A stretch of 64,000 nucleotides of DNA, taken from positions 1,631 to 65,630 of the forward strand of contig JBOHFX010000091.1 in assembly GCA_050699875.1 (NCBI GenBank). Reading direction: 5' to 3'. Position 1 is the first letter of the stretch. Every line of letters starts with the position of its first letter. Origin of the DNA: Pseudonocardiaceae bacterium (GTDB lineage: Bacteria > Actinomycetota > Actinomycetes > Mycobacteriales > Pseudonocardiaceae). The translations under genes were made by a program, and so were the position numbers. Shown piece after piece: positions 9,091-20,689 of this stretch. The notes beneath the pieces were generated by a model, which was not told where the DNA came from, made no database searches, and worked only from the letters and a program-made list of their open reading frames with translations.

Positions 9091-9429
9091 GTGCAGGATT
9101 CGTACGGGTGGGATCGTGGACCAAGGAGCGCCATGGACGCCGCAGCGGGGCTGCACCCGATCGACGACCAGTCCGAGGGTTTGAGCTGCCAAGAGCGCGA
9201 GATCTTGGCCTTCGAGCGGCAGTGGTGGAAATACGCCGGCGCCAAGGAGCAGGCTGTCCGCGAGCGGTTCGATATGCCCGCCACTCGCTACTACCAGGCC
9301 CTCAACAGCTTGATCGACCGGCCGGAGGCGCTCACCTGCGACCCGATGCTCGTCAAGCGGTTGCGCAGGCTGCGGTCCGGGCGCCAGCGAGCACGGGTCG
9401 CTCGCCGGCTCGGTGCCGACTCGAAGTAA
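9091..9429 (+). CDS. DUF3263-family protein (Rv0430-like)
   Basis: '[46 protein letters not shown]'. Syntenic position between def and the LytR_C gene. The start could be the internal Met at 9133. Confidence 0.7.
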
Positions 9430-9432
9430 GTC

Positions 9433-10047
9433 ATGAGCACGCCGAAGGGGACCGGAGCCGGTGGGCGGCTGCGTACCGCCGGGTTGGCGCTGGTCGCGCT
9501 GGCGGTGATTGCCGTCGTGATCGGGTTGGTGGTGGCCGTCACGCGAGAACAGCAGCAGACGTCGACCGCCCCCGAACCGCCGCTTACCGCAACGGACGTT
9601 CCCAGCAGCCCATCGGCGGTTCCCTCCCTCATCCCCTATCCGCCGCCAGTGCCCTCGTTCCCCGCGGAAGCGCCGCCGGCCTCGCCGCCCGGCTCGCCCG
9701 GCTTCGCGCCGGGCCCGCCGGAGGCTGTGGAGGAGGCGCCGGTGAGCGACCAGGTTTCCAGTCGCGGCACAGTGCGGGTTTACAACAACAGCACCATCCG
9801 TGGTCTGGCTGCGCGAGCCGCCGATGATTTCACTGCCGCCGGTTGGACGGTGGTCGAGGTCGGCAACTATCCACAAGGGATCATTCCGACAACCACCGTG
9901 TACTACCCGGAGGGCACGGACGAGCAAGCCATCGCGGAGGCGATCGGCGCCGAGTTCGGGATGCGTGTCGAACCCCGGTTCTCCGGCATCGAGAACGCTC
10001 CTCCGGGCCTGATCGTGATCGTCACCAACGACTACGTGTCCCCGTAA
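9433..10047 (+). CDS. Membrane-anchored LytR_C-domain protein (Rv0431-like)
   Basis: N-terminal TM '[21 protein letters not shown]', a Pro-rich linker, and C-terminal '[33 protein letters not shown]...TVYY'. Confidence 0.7.
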
Positions 10048-10105
10048 GCTGCCGACACCCGGACTCTCGGTCCAGCTCGACCTGCGGCAAATCTACCGAG
10101 CGGGG

Positions 10106-12295
10106 TCAGCCACGGCTGGTGGCGAAGGCCGCCAGCGCGGCGAGCTGTAGCGAGTCCAGAGAAGGGCGAACGGCCCGGCGGGCGGTGTCCAGGTGTGCCG
10201 CGGTCACCTCGGTGGCTTCCAGGGACTCCCGCATGGCCGTCAGTGCGGCCTCGCGGATCAGCGCCGCGCAGTCTGCTGCGGAGTAGCCCTCCAGCTCATC
10301 GGCCAACGCGTCGAGGTCCACGTCGGCGGCCAGCGGGGTGTTGCGGGCCGTGGCTCGGAGGATGGCCGCACGGGCCTGTGCATCGGGTGGCGGCACATAC
10401 ACCAGCCGCTCCAGCCGGCCGGGCCGCAACAGTGCCGGATCGATGAGCTCGGGGCGGTTGGTCGCGCCCAGCACCACCACGTCGCGCAGCGGCTCCACCC
10501 CGTCGAGCTCGGTGAGCAGCGCGGCAACCACCCGGTCTGCGACACCGGCGTCGGCGGAGCTGCCGCGCCGGGGGGCCAGCGCGTCGACCTCGTCGAGGAA
10601 GATCAGTGCCGGTGCGGCGTCGGAGGCGCGGCGGAACAGCTCCCGCACCGCCCGTTCCGATTCGCCGACCCACTTGTCCAGCAGCTCGGCGCCCTTGACG
10701 GAGAGCACGTTAAGCGCTCCGGACCCGGCCAGTGCCCGGACCAGGAAGGTCTTTCCACCGCCCGGAGGTCCGTAGAGCAGCACCCCGCGGGGCGGGTCGA
10801 CGCCGAGGCGCGTGAATGAATCGGGGTAGCGCAGCGGCCACAGCACCGCTTCGGTGAGCGCCTGCTTGGTCTGCGTCATGTCGCCGACGTCATCCAGCGT
10901 CAGCCCCCCGGTATTGATGGTGTCCGACGTGGACATCGAGATGGGACGGACGGTGTCCAGGGCGCCGATCAGATCCTGCTGGGTGATCACAAGCGTGGAC
11001 TCGGCGTCGCTGCTGGAGCGGTGGCGCAGCGAGGCGCGCACCGCTGCCTCGCGGCGTAGGGCGACAAGGTCAGCGGTGACGAATCCGGGAGTGCGCTCAC
11101 CCACGGCTGCAAGGTCGACCTCGGTGTGCAACGGTATCGCCCGGAGTAGTACCCGGAGCAGCTCGGTTCGGGTCCGGGCTTCCGGCAGCCCCAGCGACAG
11201 CTCGCGATCGATCAGGTCCGGCGCGCGCAGCCGCGGATCCACCGACTCGGGATGCGCGGTGGTGATCACCAGCGCAGCGCGGTCCAGCGCGGGCGCCAGA
11301 GCGTCGAGCACGACGGTGGCCAGCGGCGGCGGATTGGTTGCCGGCAACAGCGCCTCGACATCCGTGATCAACAGCACACTGGGCTGGTGCTGGTAGGCGG
11401 CCGCCACCGCGTCGTGCACCCGCTGGGCGGCGGCGCCAGGCTGTACCGCCGCCACGCTCGGTGCGGCCAGCTCGACGACATGAGCCCCGGCGTCGCGGGC
11501 CACCGCCCGCACCATCGTGGCCTTGCCGACCCCCTCGGGGCCGTGCACCGCCACCCCGAGGCGAGGGCTCGCTCCGAGGCTGCGCAGCAGGTCCGGTCGC
11601 TGGAAAGTGAGTTCGAACCACTCGGCCAGCCGCCGGGCGGCGTCCTGGGCGCCCACCAGATCGGCCACCGCGGGCGTTGGGGATGCTGGCCTGGCGCCGC
11701 TGGAAAGCTGCAACGGCCCAGGCACGTCTCCGGTGCGCGCGCCGTCGCGCCAGCCGACCACAGTGGACGGGTGTGGCGCGACCGGCCCGGTGGGGTCGGT
11801 GGCGGTCACGGTGAGCAGCTCGTTGGTCCACGTCATCCCGATCGCAGCTGCCAGCCGGCGACGCACGCCCGCCACGTCCGACCCGGGCGCCAGATCCTGC
11901 GGAAGCAGGGAGACCGCATCTCCGGTGGTGATCACCTTGCCGGCCAGCGCGAGCCGCAGCGTCTCGGGGCTTACCGAATGGTTGACGAGTGCGGATCCGG
12001 TGACGGTGATGGATCGGGCGGCGGGCACCTGCACCGGTGCGAGCACCACCTCGGAGCCCTCGGTCAACCCCAGGTTGGACAGCGTGAGGTCATCGAGCAG
12101 CGCGATACCGGGGGCGGTGGTCTGCCCAGCGGCCGCCAGCGCCGCGCTGACTCGGGCCCCGGTGAGCCGCACGGCGTCCCACGGCCGCAGCCCCAACGCG
12201 TCGAGCACCTCCGGGTGCAGCCGGACCACACCGCGTCGCGCATCAAGGGCGGAGGTGGTGAGCCTGGCGGTCAAGGTGATCTGCGGCGCGCTCAC
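10106..12295 (-). CDS. Cdc48/VCP-like AAA+ ATPase with two AAA modules (Rv0435c-like)
   Basis: Walker A 'GPEGVGKATM' (D1) and 'GPPGGGKTFL' (D2); 'IFLDEVDAL' Walker B; N-domain 'RGVVRLHPEVLDALGLRPWDAVRLTG'. Start uncertain: GTG at 12295 is preferred over the ORF start at 12406. Confidence 0.85.
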   Translation of the reverse strand: MSAPQITLTARLTTSALDARRGVVRLHPEVLDALGLRPWDAVRLTGARVSAALAAAGQTTAPGIALLDDLTLSNLGLTEGSEVVLAPVQVPAARSITVTGSALVNHSVSPETLRLALAGKVITTGDAVSLLPQDLAPGSDVAGVRRRLAAAIGMTWTNELLTVTATDPTGPVAPHPSTVVGWRDGARTGDVPGPLQLSSGARPASPTPAVADLVGAQDAARRLAEWFELTFQRPDLLRSLGASPRLGVAVHGPEGVGKATMVRAVARDAGAHVVELAAPSVAAVQPGAAAQRVHDAVAAAYQHQPSVLLITDVEALLPATNPPPLATVVLDALAPALDRAALVITTAHPESVDPRLRAPDLIDRELSLGLPEARTRTELLRVLLRAIPLHTEVDLAAVGERTPGFVTADLVALRREAAVRASLRHRSSSDAESTLVITQQDLIGALDTVRPISMSTSDTINTGGLTLDDVGDMTQTKQALTEAVLWPLRYPDSFTRLGVDPPRGVLLYGPPGGGKTFLVRALAGSGALNVLSVKGAELLDKWVGESERAVRELFRRASDAAPALIFLDEVDALAPRRGSSADAGVADRVVAALLTELDGVEPLRDVVVLGATNRPELIDPALLRPGRLERLVYVPPPDAQARAAILRATARNTPLAADVDLDALADELEGYSAADCAALIREAALTAMRESLEATEVTAAHLDTARRAVRPSLDSLQLAALAAFATSRG

Positions 12296-12523: not shown

Positions 12524-13615
12524 TCATCGAAGGTGCAAGTAGAAGTCCAGATGGCAGTGCGCGGCAGCTGACCAGGTGTAGCGGGCGGCGAGCGCGCGGC
12601 CGGCTTGCTCGGCAGCCGGGTCCGGATCAGTGAGCCCGGCCTCCAGTTTCGTCGCAAGCTCGGCCGGGTCGTCGGCGAAGCAGGCGACGCCGGTGAAGAT
12701 CTCCCGGAATACCGGCAGGTTCGTCACGACCAACGGGATGCCGGCGGCCAGCGCCTCCATCGCGGCCAGTCCGAAACCTTCCTTGGTGGACGGAAACGCG
12801 AACACACCCGCGGCGGCTACCAGCGCGGGCAGCGCGTCATGGTCCACCGGTCCGAGCACCACCGGCTCGACCCCGAGCTCATCGGCTCGCTGCTCCCAGC
12901 GGGCCCGGTAGTCCCGGTAGTCGAACAGGGTCTCCCCACCGGCGATCACCAGATGCACGTCCGGCATCCGCGCACTGAGCAGGGCATAGGCCTCTAGCAG
13001 TTTCAGCGATCCTTTGCGGGGCTCGATACCCCCGACGGCCAGCACGTACCGGCCAAACCACGACCGCCACGCGGCCCGGGCGCCGGCACCGGCCGGGCCG
13101 GCAGCACTGCGGAACCGGTGCGCGTCCACGCCGTTCGGGATGACCGTCGCAGTGATCCCCCAACCGTCGATCAATTCATCGGCGACCGAGGTGGACACGC
13201 AGACATGTGCGGACGGGTTGACGATGGCGCGTTCGTGGCAGGCGACCAGCTCGGGGGTGCTGAAGTGGTCGATGTGATGCACGGTGCGCACGCAGCGGTC
13301 GACGGCGTTAGCGCTGATGCAGTCCTGCGCGTGCACCACGTCATAACCGGTCGGGTCGAAAGCGTCCCGCAGCACCTCGATGGAACGCAGGATTCGGGGC
13401 CCGAAATCCTCTTCGGCGACGTCGGGAAACGGGGCGATTCGCAGTTCTATTCTAGGGTCGACGGGTCGGAAGAACGTGCAATCCCCGCCGCGGTCCAGCG
13501 CCCATACCGTCACCCGCTGGTCCAGTGCGACGAGAGCCTCTGCCAGCGACAGCGTGTGCACTACGCTGCCCCGCGGTCTGGTCGAGTACGTGAGCAGCGC
13601 TATCGACAGCCGCAT
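12524..13615 (-). CDS. GT4-family glycosyltransferase (MSMEG_0565-type, last gene of the cluster)
   Basis: 363 aa. 'MRLSIALLTYSTRPRGSVVHTLSLAEAL' at the N-terminus and 'FPSTKEGFGLAAMEALAAGIPLVVTN' (the E-x7-E region of GT-B enzymes). Confidence 0.8.
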   Translation of the reverse strand: MRLSIALLTYSTRPRGSVVHTLSLAEALVALDQRVTVWALDRGGDCTFFRPVDPRIELRIAPFPDVAEEDFGPRILRSIEVLRDAFDPTGYDVVHAQDCISANAVDRCVRTVHHIDHFSTPELVACHERAIVNPSAHVCVSTSVADELIDGWGITATVIPNGVDAHRFRSAAGPAGAGARAAWRSWFGRYVLAVGGIEPRKGSLKLLEAYALLSARMPDVHLVIAGGETLFDYRDYRARWEQRADELGVEPVVLGPVDHDALPALVAAAGVFAFPSTKEGFGLAAMEALAAGIPLVVTNLPVFREIFTGVACFADDPAELATKLEAGLTDPDPAAEQAGRALAARYTWSAAAHCHLDFYLHLR

Positions 13616-14445
13616 CAGTCAACCCGGTACACGCCGGGCTTGCGCTCGTCGATGTGCCGCAGGACCCGGCGAGCCTTGGCGATCTCCGCGGCGACGTCCA
13701 GCTCGGCGGTCGCGATACCGGCTTTGGACCAGGTGCGGGCCAGAATGTCACCGCCGGGTCCGACTACTTTCGCTTGCCCGAGGAAGCGCAGTTCGCCGAG
13801 CATCCCCGTTTGGTTGGATGAGACCAACACGATCTGGTTCTCCGCTGCTCTGGCCTGGTCGTAGAGGTCGAACAGCCGGGCTTGGCGGTCCTGGGCCATC
13901 CGTGGTGCGCGGTCGGTGAGGCTGGCCGGCCACGCTGATAAACAGGCCAGCACGTCGGCACCGTCCAGCGTGAGGGTGCGGGCCGATTCCGGAAAGGTCT
14001 TGTCGTAATCGATTAACATCCCGATCCGGCCAATCGGCGTGTCGAATGCGGAGAAACGCTCACCCGCCGAATACGCGATCGATTCGCCGGCGGGCTGATG
14101 AACCTTGCGATGGCTGCCCAGCACCCCGTCCCCATGCACGCACAGCGCAGTGTTGAAGCGCCGATCCCCGTCAGCTTCACAGAAACCGAAGCACACCACC
14201 ATCTCGGCCGCCAAGGAAGCGACCTTGCGGACGTGCGGATCATCAAGCGGCAGGGCGGGCGGTAACGCAGCCGGATCGGGCCGGCGCAGGTCGCCGAGGT
14301 AACCGCCGAGCGCCGCGTCGGGCAGCACCAGCAGCGCCACCCCGGACCGGCGGGCGTGCTCGATCAGCGTGGCCACCCGCTGCAGGTCGAAGTCGAGATC
14401 ACGACCGAACTTCGCGGCCACGGCGCCGATCCGGATCGCAGTCAT
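13615..14445 (-). CDS. Carbon-nitrogen hydrolase paralogue lacking the catalytic Glu and Cys (predicted pseudo-enzyme)
   Basis: About 70% identical over long stretches to the neighbouring nitrilase, but reads 'LLVLPDAALGGY' (Glu to Asp) and 'GMLIDYDKTFPE' (Cys to Asp). 'HRKVHQP' Lys is retained. Start at 'MTAIRIGAV'. Confidence 0.75.
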   Translation of the reverse strand: MTAIRIGAVAAKFGRDLDFDLQRVATLIEHARRSGVALLVLPDAALGGYLGDLRRPDPAALPPALPLDDPHVRKVASLAAEMVVCFGFCEADGDRRFNTALCVHGDGVLGSHRKVHQPAGESIAYSAGERFSAFDTPIGRIGMLIDYDKTFPESARTLTLDGADVLACLSAWPASLTDRAPRMAQDRQARLFDLYDQARAAENQIVLVSSNQTGMLGELRFLGQAKVVGPGGDILARTWSKAGIATAELDVAAEIAKARRVLRHIDERKPGVYRVD

Positions 14446-14453
14446 CTCAGGTG

Positions 14454-15344
14454 TCAGTATGGAAGGCGACTGCTTTCTGCGGGACAATCCTGCGGGACAC
14501 CCGCGTCCGGGCTGACCCTGTCGAGCCCGGCGTAGGCGTCTGGTCGGCGATCGCGCAGGTGGGCCATCGACCGGCGGGCCGTCTCCAGTGCTTCCTGGAC
14601 ATCCAGCTCGGCAACCGCAAGGCCGGCCTGCACGCCGGTGTCGGTCAGGATGTCACCGCCGGGATCGACGACCTTGGCGCTGGCCACGAACCGCAGCGAC
14701 CCGAACTGGCCGGATTGGTTGGCCGATAGCCAGATGATCTGGTTCTCCAGCGCTCGCACTCGGTCGAACAAGTCAAACCGGCGTTTCCAGCGGTCCTGAT
14801 GCAGGTTCGGTGCCGCCTTGGTGCGGCTGGCCGGCCACGCGGACAAGCACATCACCACCTCGGCCCCGTCCAGTGCCAGCGCCCGGGCGGACTCGGGGAA
14901 CGCCTTGTCATAGCAGATCATCATGCCCAGCCGCCCCACTGGGGTGTCGAAGGCGGTGAAGCGGCTACCCGCGGTGTAGCTGGCGTCCTCACGGAGCGGC
15001 TGATGCACTTTCCGATGGTGGCCCAGCACCCCGTCCCCGGTCACGCAGATGGCACTGTTGTAGAGCTGGTTCGCGTGCTGCTCGCAGTAGCCGACCGCGA
15101 CGACCATCTCCTTCGCCAGCCGCACCAGCCGGCGGATTTCCGACCCGTCCCGAGACAGCGGTGGCGGCAGCCCGGCCGCGCCGTTGAGGTTGGCCAGGTA
15201 CCCGCCCAACGCCGCTTCGGGCAAGGCGAGCAACCGCACTTCCGCGTCCCGAGCGGTGTCGATGAGCCGCTCGATGCGGGCGAAGTCGGCTTCCAGATCC
15301 CGGTCGAAGCCGGCTGCCGCCGCGGCCATCCGTAGCAGGTTCAT
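14454..15344 (-). CDS. Nitrilase / CN-hydrolase with intact Glu-Lys-Cys triad (Sll0784/MSMEG_0571-type)
   Basis: 'LLALPEAALGGY' (Glu), 'HRKVHQP' (Lys), 'GMMICYDKAFPE' (Cys). Its start overlaps the stop of the upstream gene (15341-15344). Confidence 0.8.
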   Translation of the reverse strand: MNLLRMAAAAAGFDRDLEADFARIERLIDTARDAEVRLLALPEAALGGYLANLNGAAGLPPPLSRDGSEIRRLVRLAKEMVVAVGYCEQHANQLYNSAICVTGDGVLGHHRKVHQPLREDASYTAGSRFTAFDTPVGRLGMMICYDKAFPESARALALDGAEVVMCLSAWPASRTKAAPNLHQDRWKRRFDLFDRVRALENQIIWLSANQSGQFGSLRFVASAKVVDPGGDILTDTGVQAGLAVAELDVQEALETARRSMAHLRDRRPDAYAGLDRVSPDAGVPQDCPAESSRLPY

Positions 15345-16765
15345 GCCGCCCCAAGCCCCGTCACCGCGTCCGTGATCACCTCGGTCAGCGCTCCGTCCGG
15401 CCAGCGCAGCGCCACCCCGCAGCCCGGAACTAACTCACCACAGTCCGCGGTGACCGCCGGTGACGCCTCCGGTGGCGGGCGCTCCGCCTGGTCGGCGGTG
15501 AGCATTCCGAAGCCGGGGAAACAGCTGAACCAATCGCCGACGCTGGCCTGCGCAGGACGGGGCACCGCGGCGACCTCAAGCACGGCCCGGCAACCGCTGG
15601 CCTCGGCGAGCATGCCAAGTGTGCCGGCCAGGCCCGCCATCGAGACGTCCTTGGCGGCGGCCGGACCGGCCACGGCCACCGAGCCGAGCATCGCGCGCAG
15701 CTCGGGGGTCCGCCGGTGGGAGGTGGAGTCCCACTGGCGACCGGCATATCCGGGCCGCCACCCACCCGCGGTGACTGCGATGTCTACCGTGTACCGGATG
15801 CGGTGGCCCGGACGGCCGCTACCGCCACGGATCGGATGCGCCGCGCGACCCAGCGCGGTGACCGACAGCGCGGCGGGCACGCCGAGCTGAGTGTGACCGC
15901 CGAGCACCGGGACGCCGTAAGCTTGGCTGGCGCGACGCAATCCGGCCAGCACCCGGCTGGCGAACGAGCGGTCCCGCGCTCCCAGCGCGTCGAGCAGGCC
16001 GACCGGCGTCGCGCCCATGGCTGCCAGGTCGTTGACGTTGACCAGGACCGAGCACCAACCGGCCCACTCCGGGTCACGTTCGACCATCGACGGCAGGATC
16101 GCATCGCAGGCGGCTACCAGGTCACTGCCGGGTACCGGGGCACCATCGTCGCCGACGTAACCAATCCCGCCCGGCGCGAGCTCGGATAGCAGCCCTCCGA
16201 GCTCGGCCTTGGTGGCGGCGACCAGCGCAGCGATCCGGTCGATCGGCCAACGCATCAGCATGTGCGCGGTTCCGGCGACGATTACCGGGCGCACCGGGAT
16301 CCAGCCGAGCCGGGTGAAGAACACCTCATTGCGGGCCTGGACGGTCGCCTCGAAGCGCAGCACTCCAGCGCTTTCCGCGTGCGCGCAGGCGGCCCGAACC
16401 AGGGCAGCACCGACGCCGCGCAGCGGGCAGCGCGGGTCCGCCACGAGCCGCCCGCCATACCACCACCCGAGGTCGGGACCGTTATCTACCGGGCCGAGTC
16501 GCACGCCGCCGAGCACGGAGCCCTCGACGTTGCGGGCCACCAGGACCAGCGTCCGGGGGTCGTCATCGCGGTCGTCGCGGTCGTGATCGGTGAACAAGCC
16601 CTGCCGGTGCACGAACACCTCGGTTCGCAGCCGGTAGTAGGCGTCCCGGGTCGCCGGGTCTGCTGCCGGTGTTATCTGGAAGTCGGCTCGCTGGGCTGGT
16701 TGGCCGAGCAGCGCTTCGCCCAGGCCATGGGCGCTGCGGTAGGCCACTGAGGTCGTCGTGTGCAC
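15341..16765 (-). CDS. Fusion protein: N-terminal GNAT acetyltransferase plus AIR-synthase-related (PurM-like) domain (Sll0786/Sll0787-type)
   Basis: The GNAT part reads 'LRGVGAALVRAACAHAESAGVLRFEATVQARNEVFFTRLGW'. The PurM-like part reads 'VLVNVNDLAAMGATPVGLLDALG...GVPVLGGHTQLG'. GTG start at 16765, 2 nt after the radical SAM stop. The 599-aa ORF start is an overprint on the upstream gene. Confidence 0.75.
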   Translation of the reverse strand: MHTTTSVAYRSAHGLGEALLGQPAQRADFQITPAADPATRDAYYRLRTEVFVHRQGLFTDHDRDDRDDDPRTLVLVARNVEGSVLGGVRLGPVDNGPDLGWWYGGRLVADPRCPLRGVGAALVRAACAHAESAGVLRFEATVQARNEVFFTRLGWIPVRPVIVAGTAHMLMRWPIDRIAALVAATKAELGGLLSELAPGGIGYVGDDGAPVPGSDLVAACDAILPSMVERDPEWAGWCSVLVNVNDLAAMGATPVGLLDALGARDRSFASRVLAGLRRASQAYGVPVLGGHTQLGVPAALSVTALGRAAHPIRGGSGRPGHRIRYTVDIAVTAGGWRPGYAGRQWDSTSHRRTPELRAMLGSVAVAGPAAAKDVSMAGLAGTLGMLAEASGCRAVLEVAAVPRPAQASVGDWFSCFPGFGMLTADQAERPPPEASPAVTADCGELVPGCGVALRWPDGALTEVITDAVTGLGAA

Positions 16766-16767
16766 GG

Positions 16768-17835
16768 TCAGGCTCCTGCCGCCGACAGCGCGCCGCATGC
16801 CCCGCACGCCGCGCAGCCGGCCTGCTGGTCGGCGCCGATCATGCCGGCGGCGCGCAGTGCGGCAGCTACCCGCTCGGTGACGTACCGGACCAGCGTGGCG
16901 GGTGGTGCGCCGATGCCGTCCCGACGGGCCAGCGTGCCGGCCATCGGGCGGAACGGCACCACGAACGGGTACACCCCCCGCTCGATCAACCGGGTTGCAC
17001 CGGCGACCAGCTCGTCCGGGTCCTCGCCCAACCCCACCAGCAGGTAGGTCGACACCCGGTTGCGACCGAAGACTCGCACGGCCTCGTCCCAGGCCGCTTC
17101 GTACTCGGCCATCGGCACTGCACCTTTGCCGGGCATCCACCGCCTGCGCACGTCGTCGTCGAGCGACTCGACGTGGATCCCGATCGCGGTTACACCGGCC
17201 TCGCGCAGGTCGGTGAGGACAGCGAGGTCTCCGGGTGGCTCAATCTGCACCTGGATGGGCAGACCTGGCACTGCTTTGAGCACCGCCCGCACGCAGCGGA
17301 CGAGGTAGCGGGCACCGCGGTCGGGGCCAGCCGTCGTGCCGGTCGTCATCACCATCTGCCGGATCCCATCCAGCCGCACGGCCGCCTGCGCCACCTCAGC
17401 CAACTGGGCCGGGGTCTTGGCCGCGATGGTCGCGCCGGCTCGCAGTGACTCCTCGATGGTGCAGAACCGGCAGCGCTGGTCCTCGGTGTAGCGGATGCAG
17501 GTCTGCACCACGGTGGTGGCCAGTACGTCAGCGCCGTGCAGGCGGGCGATCTGCTCGTACGGCACTCCGTCGGTGGTGGCCAGATCGTAGAACCGGGGCC
17601 GGTTGACGAGCTGGAGCGCCAGCCCGGTGTCCAGCTCCCCGAGGAAGATCCGGCCATCGTGCAGCCGGTAGGGACTGTCCGGGTTGCGGGGTAACGCGGC
17701 GTTGACACCGTCGACGAGCACGTGGCCGTCATCGCTGGGTCCGGCCCCGTCCGGGCGCCGAACCGGTGCTTCCATCTGCACGCCCTGCAACGCGATATCA
17801 ACCCGAGTCGCCAGTCTCTCGGCTGTGGTACCCAT
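16768..17835 (-). CDS. Radical SAM enzyme (MSMEG_0568-type) with C-x8-C-x2-C cluster motif and a C-terminal CxxCxxC tail
   Basis: 'TVVQTCIRYTEDQRCRFCTIEES'; TIM-barrel-like 'MVMTTGTT' and 'IGIHVESLDD'. The tail is 'QAGCAACGACGALSAAGA'. GGAGG lies 6 nt upstream of the ATG at 17835. Confidence 0.8.
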   Translation of the reverse strand: MGTTAERLATRVDIALQGVQMEAPVRRPDGAGPSDDGHVLVDGVNAALPRNPDSPYRLHDGRIFLGELDTGLALQLVNRPRFYDLATTDGVPYEQIARLHGADVLATTVVQTCIRYTEDQRCRFCTIEESLRAGATIAAKTPAQLAEVAQAAVRLDGIRQMVMTTGTTAGPDRGARYLVRCVRAVLKAVPGLPIQVQIEPPGDLAVLTDLREAGVTAIGIHVESLDDDVRRRWMPGKGAVPMAEYEAAWDEAVRVFGRNRVSTYLLVGLGEDPDELVAGATRLIERGVYPFVVPFRPMAGTLARRDGIGAPPATLVRYVTERVAAALRAAGMIGADQQAGCAACGACGALSAAGA

Positions 17836-17959
17836 CGCTGCCTCCTCACCAGAGATCTTTGAGTGCACTCGGCCCCGAACCCGACAGCAGAGCCGTCCGG
17901 CTGCCTTGGCGAGCTCGGCTGTCGAGTTCAGTAAGGACAGGGCTGTGACCAGGGGACGC

Positions 17960-18472
17960 CTAGAACATGTAGGTGGAATTGATGATCGCTCCCTTACGCG
18001 CGTAGTGGATCAACGCGTCCTGCACGTCGAGGGGATGGGTCGGGATGACGCCTTCGATGAGGTCCTCCTCGCGGGCGCCGTGCAGCGAAAGGCCGAAGCG
18101 GCAGCAGAACACCTTGCCGCCCTCTTTCATGAATGTCTTCAACGAGTCGTTGATGTTGTGCTCTCCGGGGAACGCCGAATTACCGGTGGTGGGGAAGCCG
18201 CGGGTGGCGAGGCAGTTCAGCGACCCCGGGCCGTAGAAGTAGATCGCCGACTCGAAGCCCTTCCGCTGCGCCCGGGTGGCCTGCAGGATAGCCACAAAAC
18301 TGACCGATGATTCGTGCGCGATTCCGTGTACCAGCGTGAAATACGTCTCGCCGTTTTCGGCCTGGTAATCCGGGAAAACCTTGGTTCCGCCATAAATGTT
18401 GGATCCTTCGGGCAGCGACGGGTGCGGGATCTCCTCAAGACTCTGCTTCTCGATGTCGGTCAGATCGGCCAT
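17960..18472 (-). CDS. Sll0783/MSMEG_0572-family protein (nitrogen-starvation-associated, function unknown)
   Basis: 170 aa: 'MADLTDIEKQSLEEIPHP...FVAILQATRAQRKGFESAIYFYGPG...CCRFGLSLHG'. GAGGAGG lies 7 nt upstream of the ATG at 18472. Family assignment is by recollection and cluster context. Confidence 0.65.
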   Translation of the reverse strand: MADLTDIEKQSLEEIPHPSLPEGSNIYGGTKVFPDYQAENGETYFTLVHGIAHESSVSFVAILQATRAQRKGFESAIYFYGPGSLNCLATRGFPTTGNSAFPGEHNINDSLKTFMKEGGKVFCCRFGLSLHGAREEDLIEGVIPTHPLDVQDALIHYARKGAIINSTYMF

Positions 18473-18496
18473 GTGACGCCTCCTCATCAGTTGGAT

Positions 18497-19324
18497 TTAC
18501 CCGTAAAGTCCTTCGAACGTGTCGCGGAACACCCGCCTGGCGAGCTCACCGTCGCCGGTGGCTGTACGCAGCTTCGCCAGCTCACCGGCGAAATCCCCCC
18601 AGGGCTGGTCGCTGGCGAACAGGATCCGGTCGTGGCCCACTCCGCGCCGGTTGATTTCGCGGACCAGCCAGCGCGGAGCGAATCCGATCGACCAGGACAG
18701 GTCGGTGTAGATCCGTTTGCCGGCCGCGATCCAGTCGAAGAACCGTGCGCCGGCCAACTTGATGTGGCCGCTCATTCCGCCACCGAAGTGCACCAGGTGA
18801 ATCGCTACCCTGTCGCCGTAGGAGTCGACCAGGCGGCCGACTTCGTCGATGTCCGAATTCCCGCCGGGCGAGGTGTGCACGTGCACCACCAGATTGTGTT
18901 CCCGGGCGACGTGGAAGATTTCATCAAGCAGGGGTGTGCACTCCTGGTCGGTCACCCGGCCACCGAGCAGGAAACTCAACTTCAGCGCTCGCACCCCAGG
19001 CTCACCGGCCAGCGCCAGTGCCTTGGTCGTTCGGTCGGCGTCGGCGGGCTTGGGTGATACCCACAGTGCTGCCCTGATCCGGTCGTCGGTATGGGCTGCC
19101 TCAATGACCAGTTCGTTGAACGAGAACGCGATGTCCGGGTCCGGCACGCCGTAATTCGGGATGACCAGTGCCCGTTCCGTTCCTTCGGTGTCCAGATCCG
19201 AGATCAACTCGGCAATAGTGGCCCTGGCGGTCGTATCGGGATTGACTGCAGGGCCGCCGTAGAACGGGAATGCCGGTAGCACTCCCAGGTGTCGGTGAGC
19301 GTCGAAGACGCGACTGGCGGACAC
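18497..19324 (-). CDS. Amidohydrolase-fold (TIM-barrel metal-dependent hydrolase) protein
   Basis: 'RVFDAHRHLG' (HxH metal motif), 'VVHVHTSPG', 'AIHLVHFGGG', 'ILFASDQPW'. GTG start at 19324, 5 nt after the flavoprotein stop. The longer ORF start overlaps the upstream gene. Confidence 0.7.
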   Translation of the reverse strand: MSASRVFDAHRHLGVLPAFPFYGGPAVNPDTTARATIAELISDLDTEGTERALVIPNYGVPDPDIAFSFNELVIEAAHTDDRIRAALWVSPKPADADRTTKALALAGEPGVRALKLSFLLGGRVTDQECTPLLDEIFHVAREHNLVVHVHTSPGGNSDIDEVGRLVDSYGDRVAIHLVHFGGGMSGHIKLAGARFFDWIAAGKRIYTDLSWSIGFAPRWLVREINRRGVGHDRILFASDQPWGDFAGELAKLRTATGDGELARRVFRDTFEGLYG

Positions 19325-19328
19325 GGCG

Positions 19329-20689
19329 TCACGCCACCGTGCGGGGAGCGACCCACTCGTCGTCCCGCGGGTAGGTGCTGGTCGAGGTGCCCGCAATCCA
19401 CCGGAACACGTGGTCGGAGCTGGCAGTGATGCGCTCAGCGAGGTACCTGGCGTCATCGGCCACTCCGGACAGCCGGCCGGAACCCCAGGTGTGCTGCCAG
19501 GGCAGCCCGAGGAAGAACAGGCCAGGGCTGCTGGTGACACCTCGATCATGCGTCGGGTAACCACGGCCGTCGAATACCGGCACCTCGATCCACCGGTCGT
19601 CGCGACCGAATCCGGTGCTCCAGATCACCGAGGTGACTGCGGTGTCGCCGAGCTCTAATCGGGTGGTTTCCCGCTCGGGTGTCCACACCGGCGTATAGCG
19701 TGATTCGGGCGCAGCGTCGATACAATGCGCCTCGATATGGTCGTCGATGGAGTCCTTGATGCTTTCCGATACCGCATCGGCCTGATCGAGGTTCCTTGCC
19801 AAGTCCGGTGCGAACCGCAACGCGTTCGCGTCCACAGCGACCAGGCGCCCGTAAAGGCGCATCCCTTGCCGGGCGAAGGCGCGCAGGTCGATATCCCGCC
19901 CACCGTCGCGTCCGGTGACGTAATGGTTCACCCGAAACCGCACCGCGTCCGCATCAGCGAACTCGTCGACCGCCTTGCGGTAGTAACCCACCGCGTCCAG
20001 CCAGGCGACTACGTCGCGGCCGCGGTAGAACCGGGCCACTCGCGGGGCGCTACCCACTGCGAGATGTACTTGACGGCCTGCCAGATGCAGATCCTCGGCG
20101 ATCTGGCAGCCGGACTGCCCGGTACCGACCACCAGCACCTCACCGGACGGAAGCTGGTCGGGACCGCGGTATTGCGACGAATGGATCTGCATCAGCTCGT
20201 CGGGCAGTCGGTCGCCCAGCCGGGAATCAGCGGCACCTGGTATGGACCGGTGGCCAGCACGACTCGATCGGCGATCAGCTCTCCGTTGCTGGTACCGACC
20301 AGGTACCGACCTTGACGATCGCGGCGCAACCGGGTAGCCGCGACGCCCTCGATGACCGGTGGGTTGAATGACTGCGCGTATGCCTGGATATACCCGGCAA
20401 TCTCGTCGCGCGTCATGAATCCGTCCGGATCATCGCCGGCGTACGGAAACCCAGGCAGTTGGCACTGCCAATTGGGTGTCACCAGGCAGAAGGAATCCCA
20501 TCGCCGGTCCCGCCATTCATGGCCGACGCGGTCACGCTCCAGCACGACATGATCGACGCCGCGTCGGGTGAGGCAGTAGCTCATGGACAAACCGGCCTGT
20601 CCGCCACCGACGACCACCACCGAATGATGTACGCCCTCGAGGTCTTCGCAAGTATCACCGGGCGTCGAGGCCTTCGCGGTCAGGGTCAT
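19329..20689 (-). pseudogene. Flavin-dependent oxidoreductase (two-dinucleotide-fold, MSMEG_0569-type) split by a 1-nt frameshift
   Basis: The N-terminal ORF (20192-20689) has 'VVVVGGGQAGLS'. The C-terminal ORF (19329-20192) has '[17 protein letters not shown]'. Across the junction, frame A reads '...[20 protein letters not shown]' and frame B reads '[19 protein letters not shown]', so one base is missing near CCCGGCTGGGCG (about 20216-20224). Confidence 0.6.

What the first reader, a model, noticed from the sequence alone, without database searches (positions are those of the whole stretch)
13615..15344. Tandem CN-hydrolase paralogues: one has the Glu-Lys-Cys triad, the other reads Asp-Lys-Asp
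The two adjacent ORFs align over their whole length. One example is 'GDGVLGHHRKVHQP...FDTPVGRLGMMICYDKAFPESARALALDGAEVVMCLSAWPAS' against 'GDGVLGSHRKVHQP...FDTPIGRIGMLIDYDKTFPESARTLTLDGADVLACLSAWPAS'.

The upstream copy keeps 'LPEAALGG' and 'ICYDK'. The downstream copy has 'LPDAALGG' and 'IDYDK', so both the general-base Glu and the nucleophilic Cys are replaced by Asp. I verified both codons on the DNA (GAC at the Glu site, GAT at the Cys site).

A nucleophile-less nitrilase-fold protein kept in an operon suggests a non-catalytic partner, a binding or scaffold subunit, or a changed chemistry.
Basis: seen in the sequence. Interest (0 to 1): 0.6.

Follow-up and report, generated by a model that had tools for sequence, protein, structure and literature searches.

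The report
Conserved cysteine-less nitrilase-fold paralogue
One of two neighbouring amidase-like genes in a nitrogen-starvation operon of actinomycetes has aspartate where these enzymes need their reactive cysteine, yet selection keeps it as tightly as the best-conserved enzymes of the operon in hundreds of species, so it cannot be the "aliphatic amidase" the literature calls it.

Summary
Two tandem CN_hydrolase genes lie on the minus strand. A (14454-15344) has Glu43-Lys112-Cys144. B (13615-14445) has Asp43-Lys114-Glu121-Asp146. They are 55% identical.

This is not decay or a strain quirk.
- Among 333 distinct B-type sequences, the Cys site is Asp in every one. The first-Glu site is D in 328, H in 3, G in 1 and A in 1.
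- All 103 A-type sequences are E-K-E-C.
- B is one ancient clade nested among Cys-bearing relatives.
- Its dN/dS is 0.08-0.12, lower than A at 0.15-0.23.
- No cysteine is invariant in B.
- An AlphaFold model (pLDDT 90) puts Asp146 at the nucleophile elbow.

The genes belong to the MSMEG_0565-0572 (gpr, Nit1C-like) cluster. By synteny, B is MSMEG_0566, annotated as "aliphatic amidase".

B's tightest genomic link is to the GT4 glycosyltransferase, not to A. The B stop overlaps the GT start in 81 of 98 loci, and B stays with the GT when the cluster is rearranged or split. B-like genes also occur in genomes with neither A nor that GT.

Most likely B is a thiol-less protein that keeps its pocket and binds a pathway intermediate without hydrolysing it. 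Carboxylate-based new chemistry is a serious rival. I could not decide between these readings.

The parts
13615..14445 (-). Gene B: thiol-less nitrilase-fold paralogue (276 aa; MSMEG_0566 family by synteny), with D43-K114-E121-D146 in place of E-K-E-C
   Evidence: conservation; AF2 model
14008..14010 (-). GAT codon for Asp146 at the nucleophile (Cys) position
   Evidence: aligned to Cys146 of 3ivz; lies at the N-terminus of helix 146-150, after strand 139-145, in the model
14317..14319 (-). GAC codon for Asp43 at the first catalytic Glu position
   Evidence: this position varies (D, H, G, A) among orthologues
14104..14106 (-). AAG codon for Lys114, the retained catalytic Lys
   Evidence: invariant in alignment A1
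14083..14085 (-). GAA codon for Glu121, the retained second Glu
   Evidence: invariant in alignment A1
14454..15344 (-). Gene A: canonical CN-hydrolase paralogue (296 aa; MSMEG_0571 family by synteny), with E43-K112-E119-C144
   Evidence: 103 of 103 A-type sequences are E-K-E-C
12524..13615 (-). MSMEG_0565-family GT4 glycosyltransferase; its ATG overlaps B's TGA by one base (TGATG)
   Evidence: TIGR04047, 452 bits, cut-off 259.85; B-GT overlap in 81 of 98 loci
15341..16759 (-). GNAT + AIR-synthase-like fusion (MSMEG_0567 family). The listed ORF runs to 17140, but the true start is probably near 16759, by the 472-aa length of this gene in Mycolicibacterium loci
   Evidence: TIGR04050 462 bits, TIGR04045 88 bits; for orthologue length
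16768..17868 (-). MSMEG_0568-family radical SAM protein
   Evidence: TIGR04043, 492 bits
17960..18487 (-). MSMEG_0572/Sll0783-family nitrogen-starvation response protein
   Evidence: TIGR04044, 254 bits
18497..19564 (-). Amidohydro_2 protein
   Evidence: PF04909, 53.7 bits
19329..20689 (-). MSMEG_0569-family flavin oxidoreductase, split into two ORFs (20192-20689 and 19329-20192) by a frameshift

Best explanation
Gene B is the local member of an old, widespread actinobacterial family, to which MSMEG_0566 belongs by synteny. It arose by one duplication of an active amidase-type CN-hydrolase of the A lineage (the MSMEG_0571 family), and aspartate became fixed at the nucleophile elbow.

Shown:
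- B keeps the nitrilase fold, the catalytic Lys and the second Glu.
- It has no conserved cysteine anywhere.
- It is under purifying selection at least as strong as A.

Inferred:
- Without a thiol it cannot form the thioacyl-enzyme, so it is not an amidase or nitrilase of the canonical kind.
- Most likely it uses the retained pocket (Lys114, Glu121, Asp146, and the YDK, FPE and AWP motifs) to bind a pathway intermediate without hydrolysing it.
- It would then work as a stoichiometric binding or hand-off subunit. It is made in translational coupling with the MSMEG_0565 glycosyltransferase.
- It possibly also pairs with A across the usual nitrilase dimer interface, where most of the fixed A/B differences lie.
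- Asp at the N-terminus of the elbow helix may also be kept because it is a good helix cap.
For: Universality: 333 of 333 distinct B-type sequences have Asp at the Cys site, and all keep Lys and Glu2. All 103 A-type sequences are E-K-E-C. At least 571 GTDB species genomes carry B-specific peptide patterns.

Origin: B is monophyletic (100/98) inside an A+B clade (100/100). Its branch lengths are like A's, and Cys-bearing sequences are its sisters.

Selection:
- dN/dS against close relatives is 0.08-0.12 for B, 0.15-0.23 for A and 0.20-0.30 for GT.
- Over 88 genomes, B is the second most conserved of six cluster proteins.
- B has 68 invariant columns and A has 65.
- No Cys is invariant in B.

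Structure: the AF2 model has pLDDT 90.4 and pTM 0.90, with Asp146 at the strand-helix elbow. Its TM-score to solved nitrilase-superfamily amidases is 0.82-0.87.

The Glu1 site is relaxed (D, H, G, A) while K, E2 and D are fixed. Deeper relatives have lost K and E but keep Asp, with signatures AQHD, AQDD and AQQD.

GT link:
- B sits directly upstream of the GT in all 20 clusters of the class-wide survey that carry B.
- It does so in all 80 loci from named genomes.
- The stop overlaps the start in 81 of 98 loci.
- B stays with the GT when the flavin oxidoreductase separates it from A.
- B stays with the GT when the cluster is split over two contigs.

A link: A and B are adjacent or within 30 nt in 82 of 96 loci. 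Four of the five fixed non-catalytic A/B differences (T150, Q188, L191, A201) lie in helices 146-160 and 183-203. From my own knowledge of nitrilase structures, these correspond to the dimer-forming helices alpha5 and alpha6.

Expression: all eight ORFs of MSMEG_0565-0572 are expressed (PMC6039565). MSMEG_0566 is induced under nitrogen limitation (PMC4617892, PMC4222082).
Against: - No binding, complex or activity data exist.
- Conservation higher than that of the active paralogue, with K114, E121 and D146 invariant, would fit a working enzyme as well as a binder.
- B-like genes occur in genomes lacking both A and an MSMEG_0565-family GT: G018 and G146. In those lineages, at least, no such partner is needed.
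- Some clusters have A and GT but no B (L051-L057), so neither A nor GT strictly needs B.
- Mirror-tree partial correlations are no higher than for other pairs: A-B 0.32, B-GT 0.31.
- Inter-protein covariation is uninformative.
- The two apparent fusion proteins are frameshift artefacts.
- Assigning helices 146-160 and 183-203 to the dimer interface rests on recalled topology, not on a complex model.
Confidence: 0.45

Rival explanations
1. Changed chemistry. B is an active enzyme in which Asp146, with Lys114 and Glu121, acts as a carboxylate nucleophile or as a general base for direct water attack. It would work on an activated or glycosylated intermediate made or used by the neighbouring glycosyltransferase. 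This would be a new catalytic type on the nitrilase fold.
For: - Asp at the Cys site is invariant in 333 of 333 sequences, together with invariant Lys and Glu2.
- dN/dS is lower than for the active paralogue.
- The old general-base position (Glu1) is the one that is relaxed, as expected if the base role moved.
- B-like genes stand alone in genomes without A or the GT, next to sugar-metabolism genes: aldose 1-epimerase in L047 and an NTP_transferase in L050 and L058.
- From my own knowledge, the isochorismatase-like hydrolases offer a precedent. Cys-less members such as PhzD and EntB carry out a different hydrolysis using an Asp.
Against: - No nitrilase-superfamily enzyme with a carboxylate nucleophile is known to me or was found in the paper library.
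- Deeper members of the B clade keep Asp but have lost Lys and both Glu (AQHD, AQDD, AQQD). That fits a structural role for Asp better than a catalytic Lys/Glu/Asp set.
- The sugar-gene neighbours of the standalone copies are few, and in L050 they are not in one operon with it.
Confidence: 0.33
2. Pure prozyme. B has no ligand function of its own. It exists only to form an A:B heterodimer that activates, stabilises or tunes the active paralogue A. The model is the dead paralogue ('prozyme') of trypanosomatid AdoMetDC, or the heteromeric NIT4A/NIT4B nitrilases of grasses.
For: - In the class-wide survey, A and B are present in the same genome in all 20 cluster-bearing genomes.
- They are usually adjacent.
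- A-B has the highest raw distance correlation, r = 0.918.
- The fixed A/B differences concentrate in the two presumed interface helices.
- About 40 unrelated 530-610 aa proteins fuse an E-K-(E/D)-C domain to a Cys-less (Gly) CN_hydrolase domain. Active-plus-dead pairing therefore recurs in this fold.
- Heteromeric NIT4 complexes are reported for Poaceae (PMC3537687, citing Jenrich et al. 2007). The prozyme case is described in PMC6221367.
Against: - B is separated from A by the oxidoreductase in 11 loci, and lies on another contig in G301. It never leaves the GT in cluster contexts.
- B-like genes exist without A, and A exists without B.
- Invariance of the pocket residues K114 and E121 is not needed for a scaffold.
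- A's residues at the diverged helix positions (W, R, L) are unchanged in the B-less clusters, so A did not adapt to B.
Confidence: 0.15
3. Decay or artefact. B is a dying duplicate, a strain-specific mutant or a sequencing error.
For: The genome is a fragmented assembly of 196 contigs. A neighbouring gene, the flavin oxidoreductase, carries a frameshift.
Against: - B is an intact ORF.
- The identical substitution is present in 333 of 333 homologues from many genera, including complete genomes.
- dN/dS is about 0.1.
- B forms a single old clade.
Confidence: 0.01

Closest known systems
MSMEG_0566 ('aliphatic amidase') and MSMEG_0571 ('carbon-nitrogen hydrolase') of the GlnR-dependent gpr cluster MSMEG_0565-0572 of Mycobacterium smegmatis (PMC6039565, PMC4617892, PMC4222082)
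   Same: The eight-gene system is the same. NCBIfam models named after these genes hit the window's GT, GNAT-AIRS, radical SAM, 0572 and oxidoreductase genes. Mycolicibacterium loci have the order 0572-A-97aa-FMO-rSAM-GNAT_AIRS-B-GT. That order matches the locus-tag numbering, so B corresponds to MSMEG_0566 and A to MSMEG_0571. All 120 Mycolicibacterium-type B homologues have Asp at the Glu1 site and Lys; 116 were read as D-K-D outright and no Cys appeared at the nucleophile site.
   Different: Gene order differs. Here A and B are tandem; in mycobacteria they lie at opposite ends of the cluster. The literature treats MSMEG_0566 as a C-N-bond-hydrolysing amidase that contributes to nitrogen assimilation, and does not mention the missing nucleophile. 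I did not read the M. smegmatis sequence itself; the equivalence is by synteny in related Mycolicibacterium genomes.
Small amidase-type members of the nitrilase superfamily with solved structures: Pyrococcus abyssi nitrilase 3ivz, P. horikoshii PH0642 amidase 1j31/6ypa, Medicago N-carbamoylputrescine amidohydrolase 5h8i
   Same: The fold is the same (Foldseek TM 0.82-0.87). The sequence is alignable end to end (E = 1e-20). Lys, the second Glu and the flanking motifs are the same.
   Different: These enzymes have the E-K-E-C catalytic set. B has Asp at the Cys site and usually Asp at the first Glu site. A and B also carry an insertion of about 12 residues that lengthens helix 183-203.
Nit1C cluster nitrilase NitC / Nit6803 family (TIGR04048) of Pseudomonas and Synechocystis (PMC7815647, PMC1199592)
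   Same: The surrounding cluster is homologous: radical SAM, GNAT, AIR-synthase-like, Sll0783-like and flavin oxidoreductase genes.
   Different: Neither A nor B belongs to that nitrilase family: 30.3 and 26.6 bits against a cut-off of 502.6. The actinobacterial version has an amidase-type pair plus a GT4 glycosyltransferase instead of one true nitrilase.
Dead-paralogue partners of active enzymes: trypanosomatid AdoMetDC prozyme (PMC6221367); heteromeric NIT4A/NIT4B nitrilases of Poaceae (Jenrich et al. 2007, cited in PMC3537687)
   Same: A duplicated paralogue that does not itself catalyse is retained next to, or together with, the active copy.
   Different: No complex has been shown here. 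As I recall, the NIT4 isoforms all keep their Cys. B's most constant neighbour is a glycosyltransferase, not its paralogue.

Membership tests
Nitrilase superfamily / CN_hydrolase (PF00795) | Sequence match to the family model | tested here: met
   B scores 113.2 bits and A scores 132.2 bits; the cut-off is 23.2.
Nitrilase superfamily / CN_hydrolase (PF00795) | Alpha-beta-beta-alpha sandwich fold | tested here: met
   The AF2 model of B has pLDDT 90.4. Foldseek gives TM 0.82-0.87 to 3ivz, 5h8k, 2w1v, 6ypa and 6mg6.
Nitrilase superfamily / CN_hydrolase (PF00795) | Catalytic Glu-Lys-Cys triad (plus second Glu) | tested here: not met
   B has D43-K114-E121-D146 at the columns of E42-K113-E120-C146 of 3ivz. 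No Cys is invariant in 22 class-wide orthologues. A meets this feature: E43-K112-E119-C144.
Nit6803 / NitC nitrilase of Nit1C clusters (TIGR04048) | Score over the curated cut-off | tested here: not met
   B scores 26.6 bits and A scores 30.3 bits; the cut-off is 502.6.
Aliphatic amidase AmiE (NF009802), the published annotation of MSMEG_0566 | Score over the curated cut-off, and a Cys nucleophile | tested here: not met
   NF009802 is not among B's hits at E <= 1e-5, and the Cys is absent.
MSMEG_0565-0572 (gpr) cluster | Presence of the signature genes over their cut-offs, in one co-directional block | tested here: met
   Scores against cut-offs are TIGR04047 452/259.85, TIGR04050 462/312.2, TIGR04045 88/68.45, TIGR04043 492/303.7 and TIGR04044 254/109.85. 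TIGR04046 is split into 418 + 209 bits by a frameshift. All genes lie on the minus strand at 12524-20689.
MSMEG_0565-0572 (gpr) cluster | GlnR-dependent induction under nitrogen limitation, and peroxide resistance | not testable with these tools
   This is reported for M. smegmatis only (PMC6039565, PMC4222082). I did not look for a GlnR box or for expression data in this genome.
Pseudoenzyme (dead paralogue under selection) | Loss of an essential catalytic residue | tested here: met
   Cys->Asp in 333 of 333 sequences.
Pseudoenzyme (dead paralogue under selection) | Retention under purifying selection | tested here: met
   dN/dS is 0.08-0.12 and B is monophyletic with normal branch lengths.
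Pseudoenzyme (dead paralogue under selection) | Demonstrated absence of catalytic activity | not testable with these tools
   This needs enzyme assays. Carboxylate-based activity is not excluded.
Heteromeric nitrilase / prozyme-type complex | Physical complex of the dead and the active paralogue | tested here: inconclusive
   Adjacency holds in 82 of 96 loci. Mirror-tree partial r is 0.32, no higher than for other pairs. Covariation is uninformative. No multimer prediction was available.

The most novel reading that the evidence does not exclude
B-family proteins are active enzymes that use Asp146 as a carboxylate nucleophile or base on the nitrilase fold. That would be a catalytic type not known in this superfamily. 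They would act on a glycosylated or sugar-linked intermediate together with the GT4 enzyme they are translationally coupled to. A second possibility is that they are a dedicated acceptor-binding subunit of that glycosyltransferase.
Probability: 0.3. Interest if true: 0.8.

Novelty: new variant of a known kind. Interest (0 to 1): 0.55.

Why it matters
The MSMEG_0565-0572 / Nit1C-like clusters are widespread, strongly induced by nitrogen starvation and linked to peroxide resistance in mycobacterial biofilms (PMC6039565). Their chemistry is still unknown.

One of the two "amidases" that the literature counts among nitrogen-scavenging C-N hydrolases (PMC4617892, PMC4222082, PMC6039565) cannot work as one. 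This changes how the pathway should be reconstructed. There is one hydrolytic step, not two. There is also a conserved nitrilase-fold protein tied to a glycosyltransferase.

The finding corrects an annotation that affects at least 571 species genomes. It defines a clean family signature: D/H-K-E-D, plus Q188, L191 and A201. It gives simple experiments: D146 variants, pull-downs with the GT and with A, and metabolite profiles of single-gene deletions.

If the Asp turns out to be catalytic, it would add a new mechanism to a well-studied superfamily. I found no description of a natural Cys-less nitrilase-superfamily member in the searchable literature.

Tried and rejected
1. Alternative nucleophile. 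I looked for another conserved Cys in B. Cys85 is 95% conserved and lies two residues before Gly87 in strand 83-92. By inference from the 3ivz alignment it is in the sheet core, and A also has Cys there in 8 of 26 sequences. No Cys is invariant. Rejected.

2. Relaxed selection. Rejected by dN/dS and by branch lengths.

3. Mirror-tree test for a specific partner. Partial correlations were A-B 0.32 and B-GT 0.31. Unrelated pairs were as high or higher, for example rSAM-f0572 at 0.50. Inconclusive.

4. Inter-protein covariation (MI with APC) on 88 genomes, Neff about 40. The top z-scores were the same for every protein pair. Uninformative.

5. Rosetta-stone fusions. P0135 (B + GT4, 669 aa) and P0198 (AIRS + A, 508 aa) looked like fusions by Pfam. 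Both contain long Arg/Pro-rich off-frame stretches and match only fragments of each domain. They are frameshift artefacts.

6. One locus seemed to have B and GT without A (L097). That genome has A with rSAM and GNAT-AIRS on another contig. So the cluster is split; A is not lost.

7. The query I used for the Amidohydro_2 gene in the synteny scans was accidentally out of frame. Its hits mark homologous DNA only, so I drew no dN/dS from it.

8. Literature searches for a nitrilase-superfamily pseudoenzyme, or for a biochemical study of MSMEG_0566, found nothing.
Full report
**Observation**

The minus strand of 13615-15344 holds two adjacent ORFs. Both match Pfam CN_hydrolase: A at 14454-15344 scores 132 bits and B scores 113 bits. 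They are 55% identical over 273 residues, E = 1e-102.

- A has LPE(43)AALGG, HRK(112)VH and MIC(144)YDK.
- B has LPD(43)AALGG (GAC 14319-14317), HRK(114)VH, GE(121)S and LID(146)YDK (GAT 14010-14008).

B most plausibly starts at the ATG at 14445, 8 nt after A's TGA. Its own TGA overlaps the ATG of the next gene (TGATG at 13615).

A phmmer alignment to the solved Pyrococcus abyssi nitrilase 3ivz places B's D43, K114, E121 and D146 opposite E42, K113, E120 and C146 with high posterior. From my own knowledge, those four are the catalytic residues of that enzyme.

**Context**

The pair sits inside a co-directional block, 12524-20689. NCBIfam identifies this block as the MSMEG_0565-0572 system.

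| Gene | Model and score |
|---|---|
| GT4 glycosyltransferase | TIGR04047, 452 bits |
| B | no specific model |
| A | no specific model |
| GNAT + AIR-synthase-like fusion | TIGR04050 and TIGR04045 |
| Radical SAM protein | TIGR04043 |
| Sll0783-like protein | TIGR04044 |
| Amidohydro_2 protein | PF04909 |
| Flavin oxidoreductase | TIGR04046, split by a frameshift |

Neither A nor B is the Nit6803/NitC nitrilase of proteobacterial and cyanobacterial Nit1C clusters: they score 30 and 27 bits against a cut-off of 503. Their best hits are archaeal amidase-type nitrilases and N-carbamoylputrescine amidase, all far below cut-off.

Source names of the closest homologues place the genome in the Pseudonocardiaceae.

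**Is the variant conserved?**

- All 120 closest database homologues (at least 77% identical) have Asp at both the first-Glu site and the Cys site.
- In an even sample of 301 genomes of the class, 29 have a hit, covering 20 of 151 genera. Twenty of them carry a cluster with both A and B. Every B has Asp at the Cys site and keeps Lys. The first-Glu site is mostly D, but also H, G or A.
- A pattern scan of GTDB species genomes found at least 571 genomes with B-specific peptides. They include Amycolatopsis, Actinokineospora, Kutzneria, Saccharothrix, Lentzea, Streptomyces, Streptosporangiaceae and Cryptosporangium. In the 80 loci returned, B reads D-K-D in 78, and my pattern missed one position in each of the other two. 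All 77 A copies found are E-K-C. The gene order is ...GNAT_AIRS-A-B-GT.
- A second search, seeded from a Mycolicibacterium rutilum orthologue, returned 120 mycobacterial homologues. All have Asp43 and Lys114. 116 read D-K-D outright, my pattern missed the last position in four, and none shows Cys.
- Pooling everything on one HMM alignment gives 333 distinct B-type sequences. 328 are D-K-E-D, 3 are H-K-E-D, 1 is G-K-E-D and 1 is A-K-E-D. All 103 A-type sequences are E-K-E-C.
- In 50%-identity cluster representatives, deeper members of the B clade have even lost Lys and both Glu (AQHD, AQDD, AQQD). They still keep the Asp.

**History and selection**

A maximum-likelihood tree shows the following.
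- A+B form one clade (100/100) apart from other E-K-E-C hydrolases.
- B is a single clade (100/98) nested among Cys-bearing sequences.
- The A genes of B-less clusters are basal.
- B's terminal branches are as short as A's.

So one old duplication was followed by fixation of Asp.

dN/dS against eight close relatives is 0.08-0.15 for B. For the seven with a true A orthologue, it is 0.08-0.12 for B, 0.15-0.23 for A, 0.20-0.30 for the GT and 0.10-0.16 for the radical SAM gene. More distant pairs give similar values for A and B.

Across 88 genomes, B is the second most conserved of six cluster proteins. B has 68 invariant columns and A has 65. No cysteine is invariant in B.

Decay, strain-specific mutation and sequencing error are excluded.

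**Structure**

AlphaFold2 on a 43-sequence alignment gives pLDDT 90.4 and pTM 0.90.
- Asp146 is the first residue of helix 146-150, directly after strand 139-145. This is the nucleophile elbow.
- Lys114 follows strand 107-113.
- Asp43 follows strand 38-40.

Foldseek matches solved nitrilase-superfamily amidases with TM 0.82-0.87. The tools return no residue-level superposition. The structure-guided statement therefore rests on the secondary-structure register plus the sequence alignment.

**Who does B work with?**

Evidence for A:
- A and B lie in the same genome in all 20 cluster-bearing genomes of the class-wide survey.
- They overlap or lie within 30 nt of each other in 82 of 96 loci.
- Besides C->D, there are five sites that are fixed differently in A and B. 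Four of them (A148->T150, W186->Q188, R189->L191, L199->A201) lie in helices 146-160 and 183-203 of the model. These two helices make up about 13% of the protein. From my knowledge of nitrilase structures, they correspond to the alpha5 and alpha6 helices that form the dimer interface.

Evidence for the GT, which is stronger:
- B is immediately upstream of the GT in all 20 B-bearing clusters of the survey and in all 80 named loci.
- The stop overlaps the start in 81 of 98 loci.
- In 11 loci the oxidoreductase separates A from B, yet B stays with the GT and A stays with GNAT-AIRS.
- In one Pseudonocardiaceae genome the system is split into FMO-Amidohydro_2-f0572-B-GT on one contig and f0572-rSAM-GNAT_AIRS-A on another.

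Evidence against any obligate partner:
- Seven genomes have A and GT but no B. In the six of these without an MSMEG_0569-type oxidoreductase, a gap of about 1.8 kb lies between A and GT; the three I examined hold a different FAD protein.
- Two genomes have a B-like Cys->Asp gene but neither A nor an MSMEG_0565-family GT over cut-off. In one the gene sits next to aldose 1-epimerase. In the other it sits in a citrate-synthase / NTP-transferase / moeA neighbourhood.

The statistical tests for a partner were uninformative. Two apparent fusion proteins are frameshift artefacts.

**Mechanism**

Shown: B has the fold, Lys114, Glu121 and the motifs around the pocket. It has no thiol, and it is strongly constrained.

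Inferred: it cannot form a thioacyl intermediate, so it is not a canonical amidase or nitrilase.

My preferred reading (0.45) is a non-hydrolytic protein that uses its pocket. It would bind a pathway intermediate and act as a stoichiometric subunit with the GT, possibly also dimerising with A. The Asp would be kept partly because it caps the elbow helix.

The main rival (0.33) is a real enzyme with carboxylate-based chemistry. High conservation, the invariant K/E/D set, relaxation of the old general-base position and the standalone copies all fit that. The deeper relatives that keep Asp but lose K and E argue against it.

A pure prozyme for A gets 0.15. Decay gets about 0.01.

**Comparison with what is known**

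By synteny, B is MSMEG_0566 and A is MSMEG_0571 of the GlnR-dependent gpr cluster. Mycolicibacterium loci read 0572-A-97aa-FMO-rSAM-GNAT_AIRS-B-GT.

That operon is necessary and sufficient for nitrogen-starvation-induced peroxide resistance in M. smegmatis, and all eight ORFs are expressed (PMC6039565). MSMEG_0566 is induced 3- to 9-fold under nitrogen limitation. It is listed as an "aliphatic amidase" among C-N-bond enzymes (PMC4617892, PMC4222082), and is said to possibly contribute directly to nitrogen assimilation (PMC6039565). None of these papers notes the missing nucleophile.

I found no paper describing a natural Cys-less nitrilase-superfamily member.

Mechanistic analogues are dead-paralogue partners such as the AdoMetDC prozyme (PMC6221367) and the heteromeric NIT4 nitrilases of grasses (PMC3537687). 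No complex has been shown here.

Earlier notes of this scan report the same paralogue in other genomes. I read them after my own analysis. They agree with it but are not independent evidence.

**Verdict**

This is a real, conserved and functionally unexplained variant of a known fold in a known but biochemically unsolved operon. It is a new variant of a known kind. Interest is moderate to good at 0.55. It corrects a widespread annotation and sets up simple, decisive experiments.

Noticed in passing
window 19329-20689 (-): The MSMEG_0569-family flavin oxidoreductase is split into two ORFs, 20192-20689 and 19329-20192. They match profile positions 1-143 and 146-400. The junction reads ...gagcTGATGcag.... 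In the Mycolicibacterium loci, the one set for which gene calls were available, the gene is one ORF of 425 aa. This could be a real pseudogene or an assembly indel in this 196-contig genome.
   Followed up: partly
proteins P0153, P0159, P0178 and about 40 other 50%-cluster representatives: A family of 530-610 aa proteins has two CN_hydrolase domains in tandem. The N-terminal domain is E-K-(E/D)-C. The C-terminal domain has Gly at the Cys site (E-K-D-G or E-Q-x-G). This is an independent case of an active domain paired with a Cys-less one in this fold. The sequences are unnamed and metagenomic and fall below all NCBIfam cut-offs.
   Followed up: partly
L097 (G301 contig 60) and L147 (G301 contig 25): One Pseudonocardiaceae genome has the system split into two modules, each with its own Sll0783-like gene. 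One is FMO-Amidohydro_2-f0572-B-GT. The other is f0572-(1 kb)-rSAM-GNAT_AIRS-A. This suggests two functional sub-modules.
   Followed up: partly
L051-L057: A cluster variant in one family (f50, genome sizes 7-10 Mb) lacks B. In six of the seven loci a gap of about 1.8 kb lies between A and the GT. In the three I examined (L051, L054, L055) it holds a 517-599 aa FAD-binding protein (FAD_binding_3; Trp_halogenase-like in L054), not the MSMEG_0569-type oxidoreductase. L056 instead has A-FMO-GT. The A genes of the six gap-type loci are basal in the tree.
   Followed up: partly
L047 9341-11333; L050 and L058 around 9200-10550: Standalone B-like (Cys->Asp) genes occur outside any cluster. One lies 1 nt upstream of an aldose 1-epimerase gene. 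Two lie in a shared neighbourhood with citrate synthase, an NTP_transferase and moeA. The latter two form a separate long-branched subclade with His at the first-Glu site.
   Followed up: partly
window 15341-17140 and 16768-17868 (-): The longest ORF of the GNAT-AIRS gene overlaps the radical SAM gene by about 370 nt. The GNAT match begins only at residue 154, and orthologues are 472 aa long. The real start is therefore probably near 16759, directly after the radical SAM stop.
   Followed up: no
proteins P0135 and P0198 (public metagenome ORFs): Two database proteins look like B-GT and AIRS-A fusions but are frameshift-ridden ORFs. In GC-rich DNA, off-frame reading stays open and produces long Arg/Pro-rich stretches. 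This is a caution for Rosetta-stone arguments based on metagenome ORFs.
   Followed up: yes
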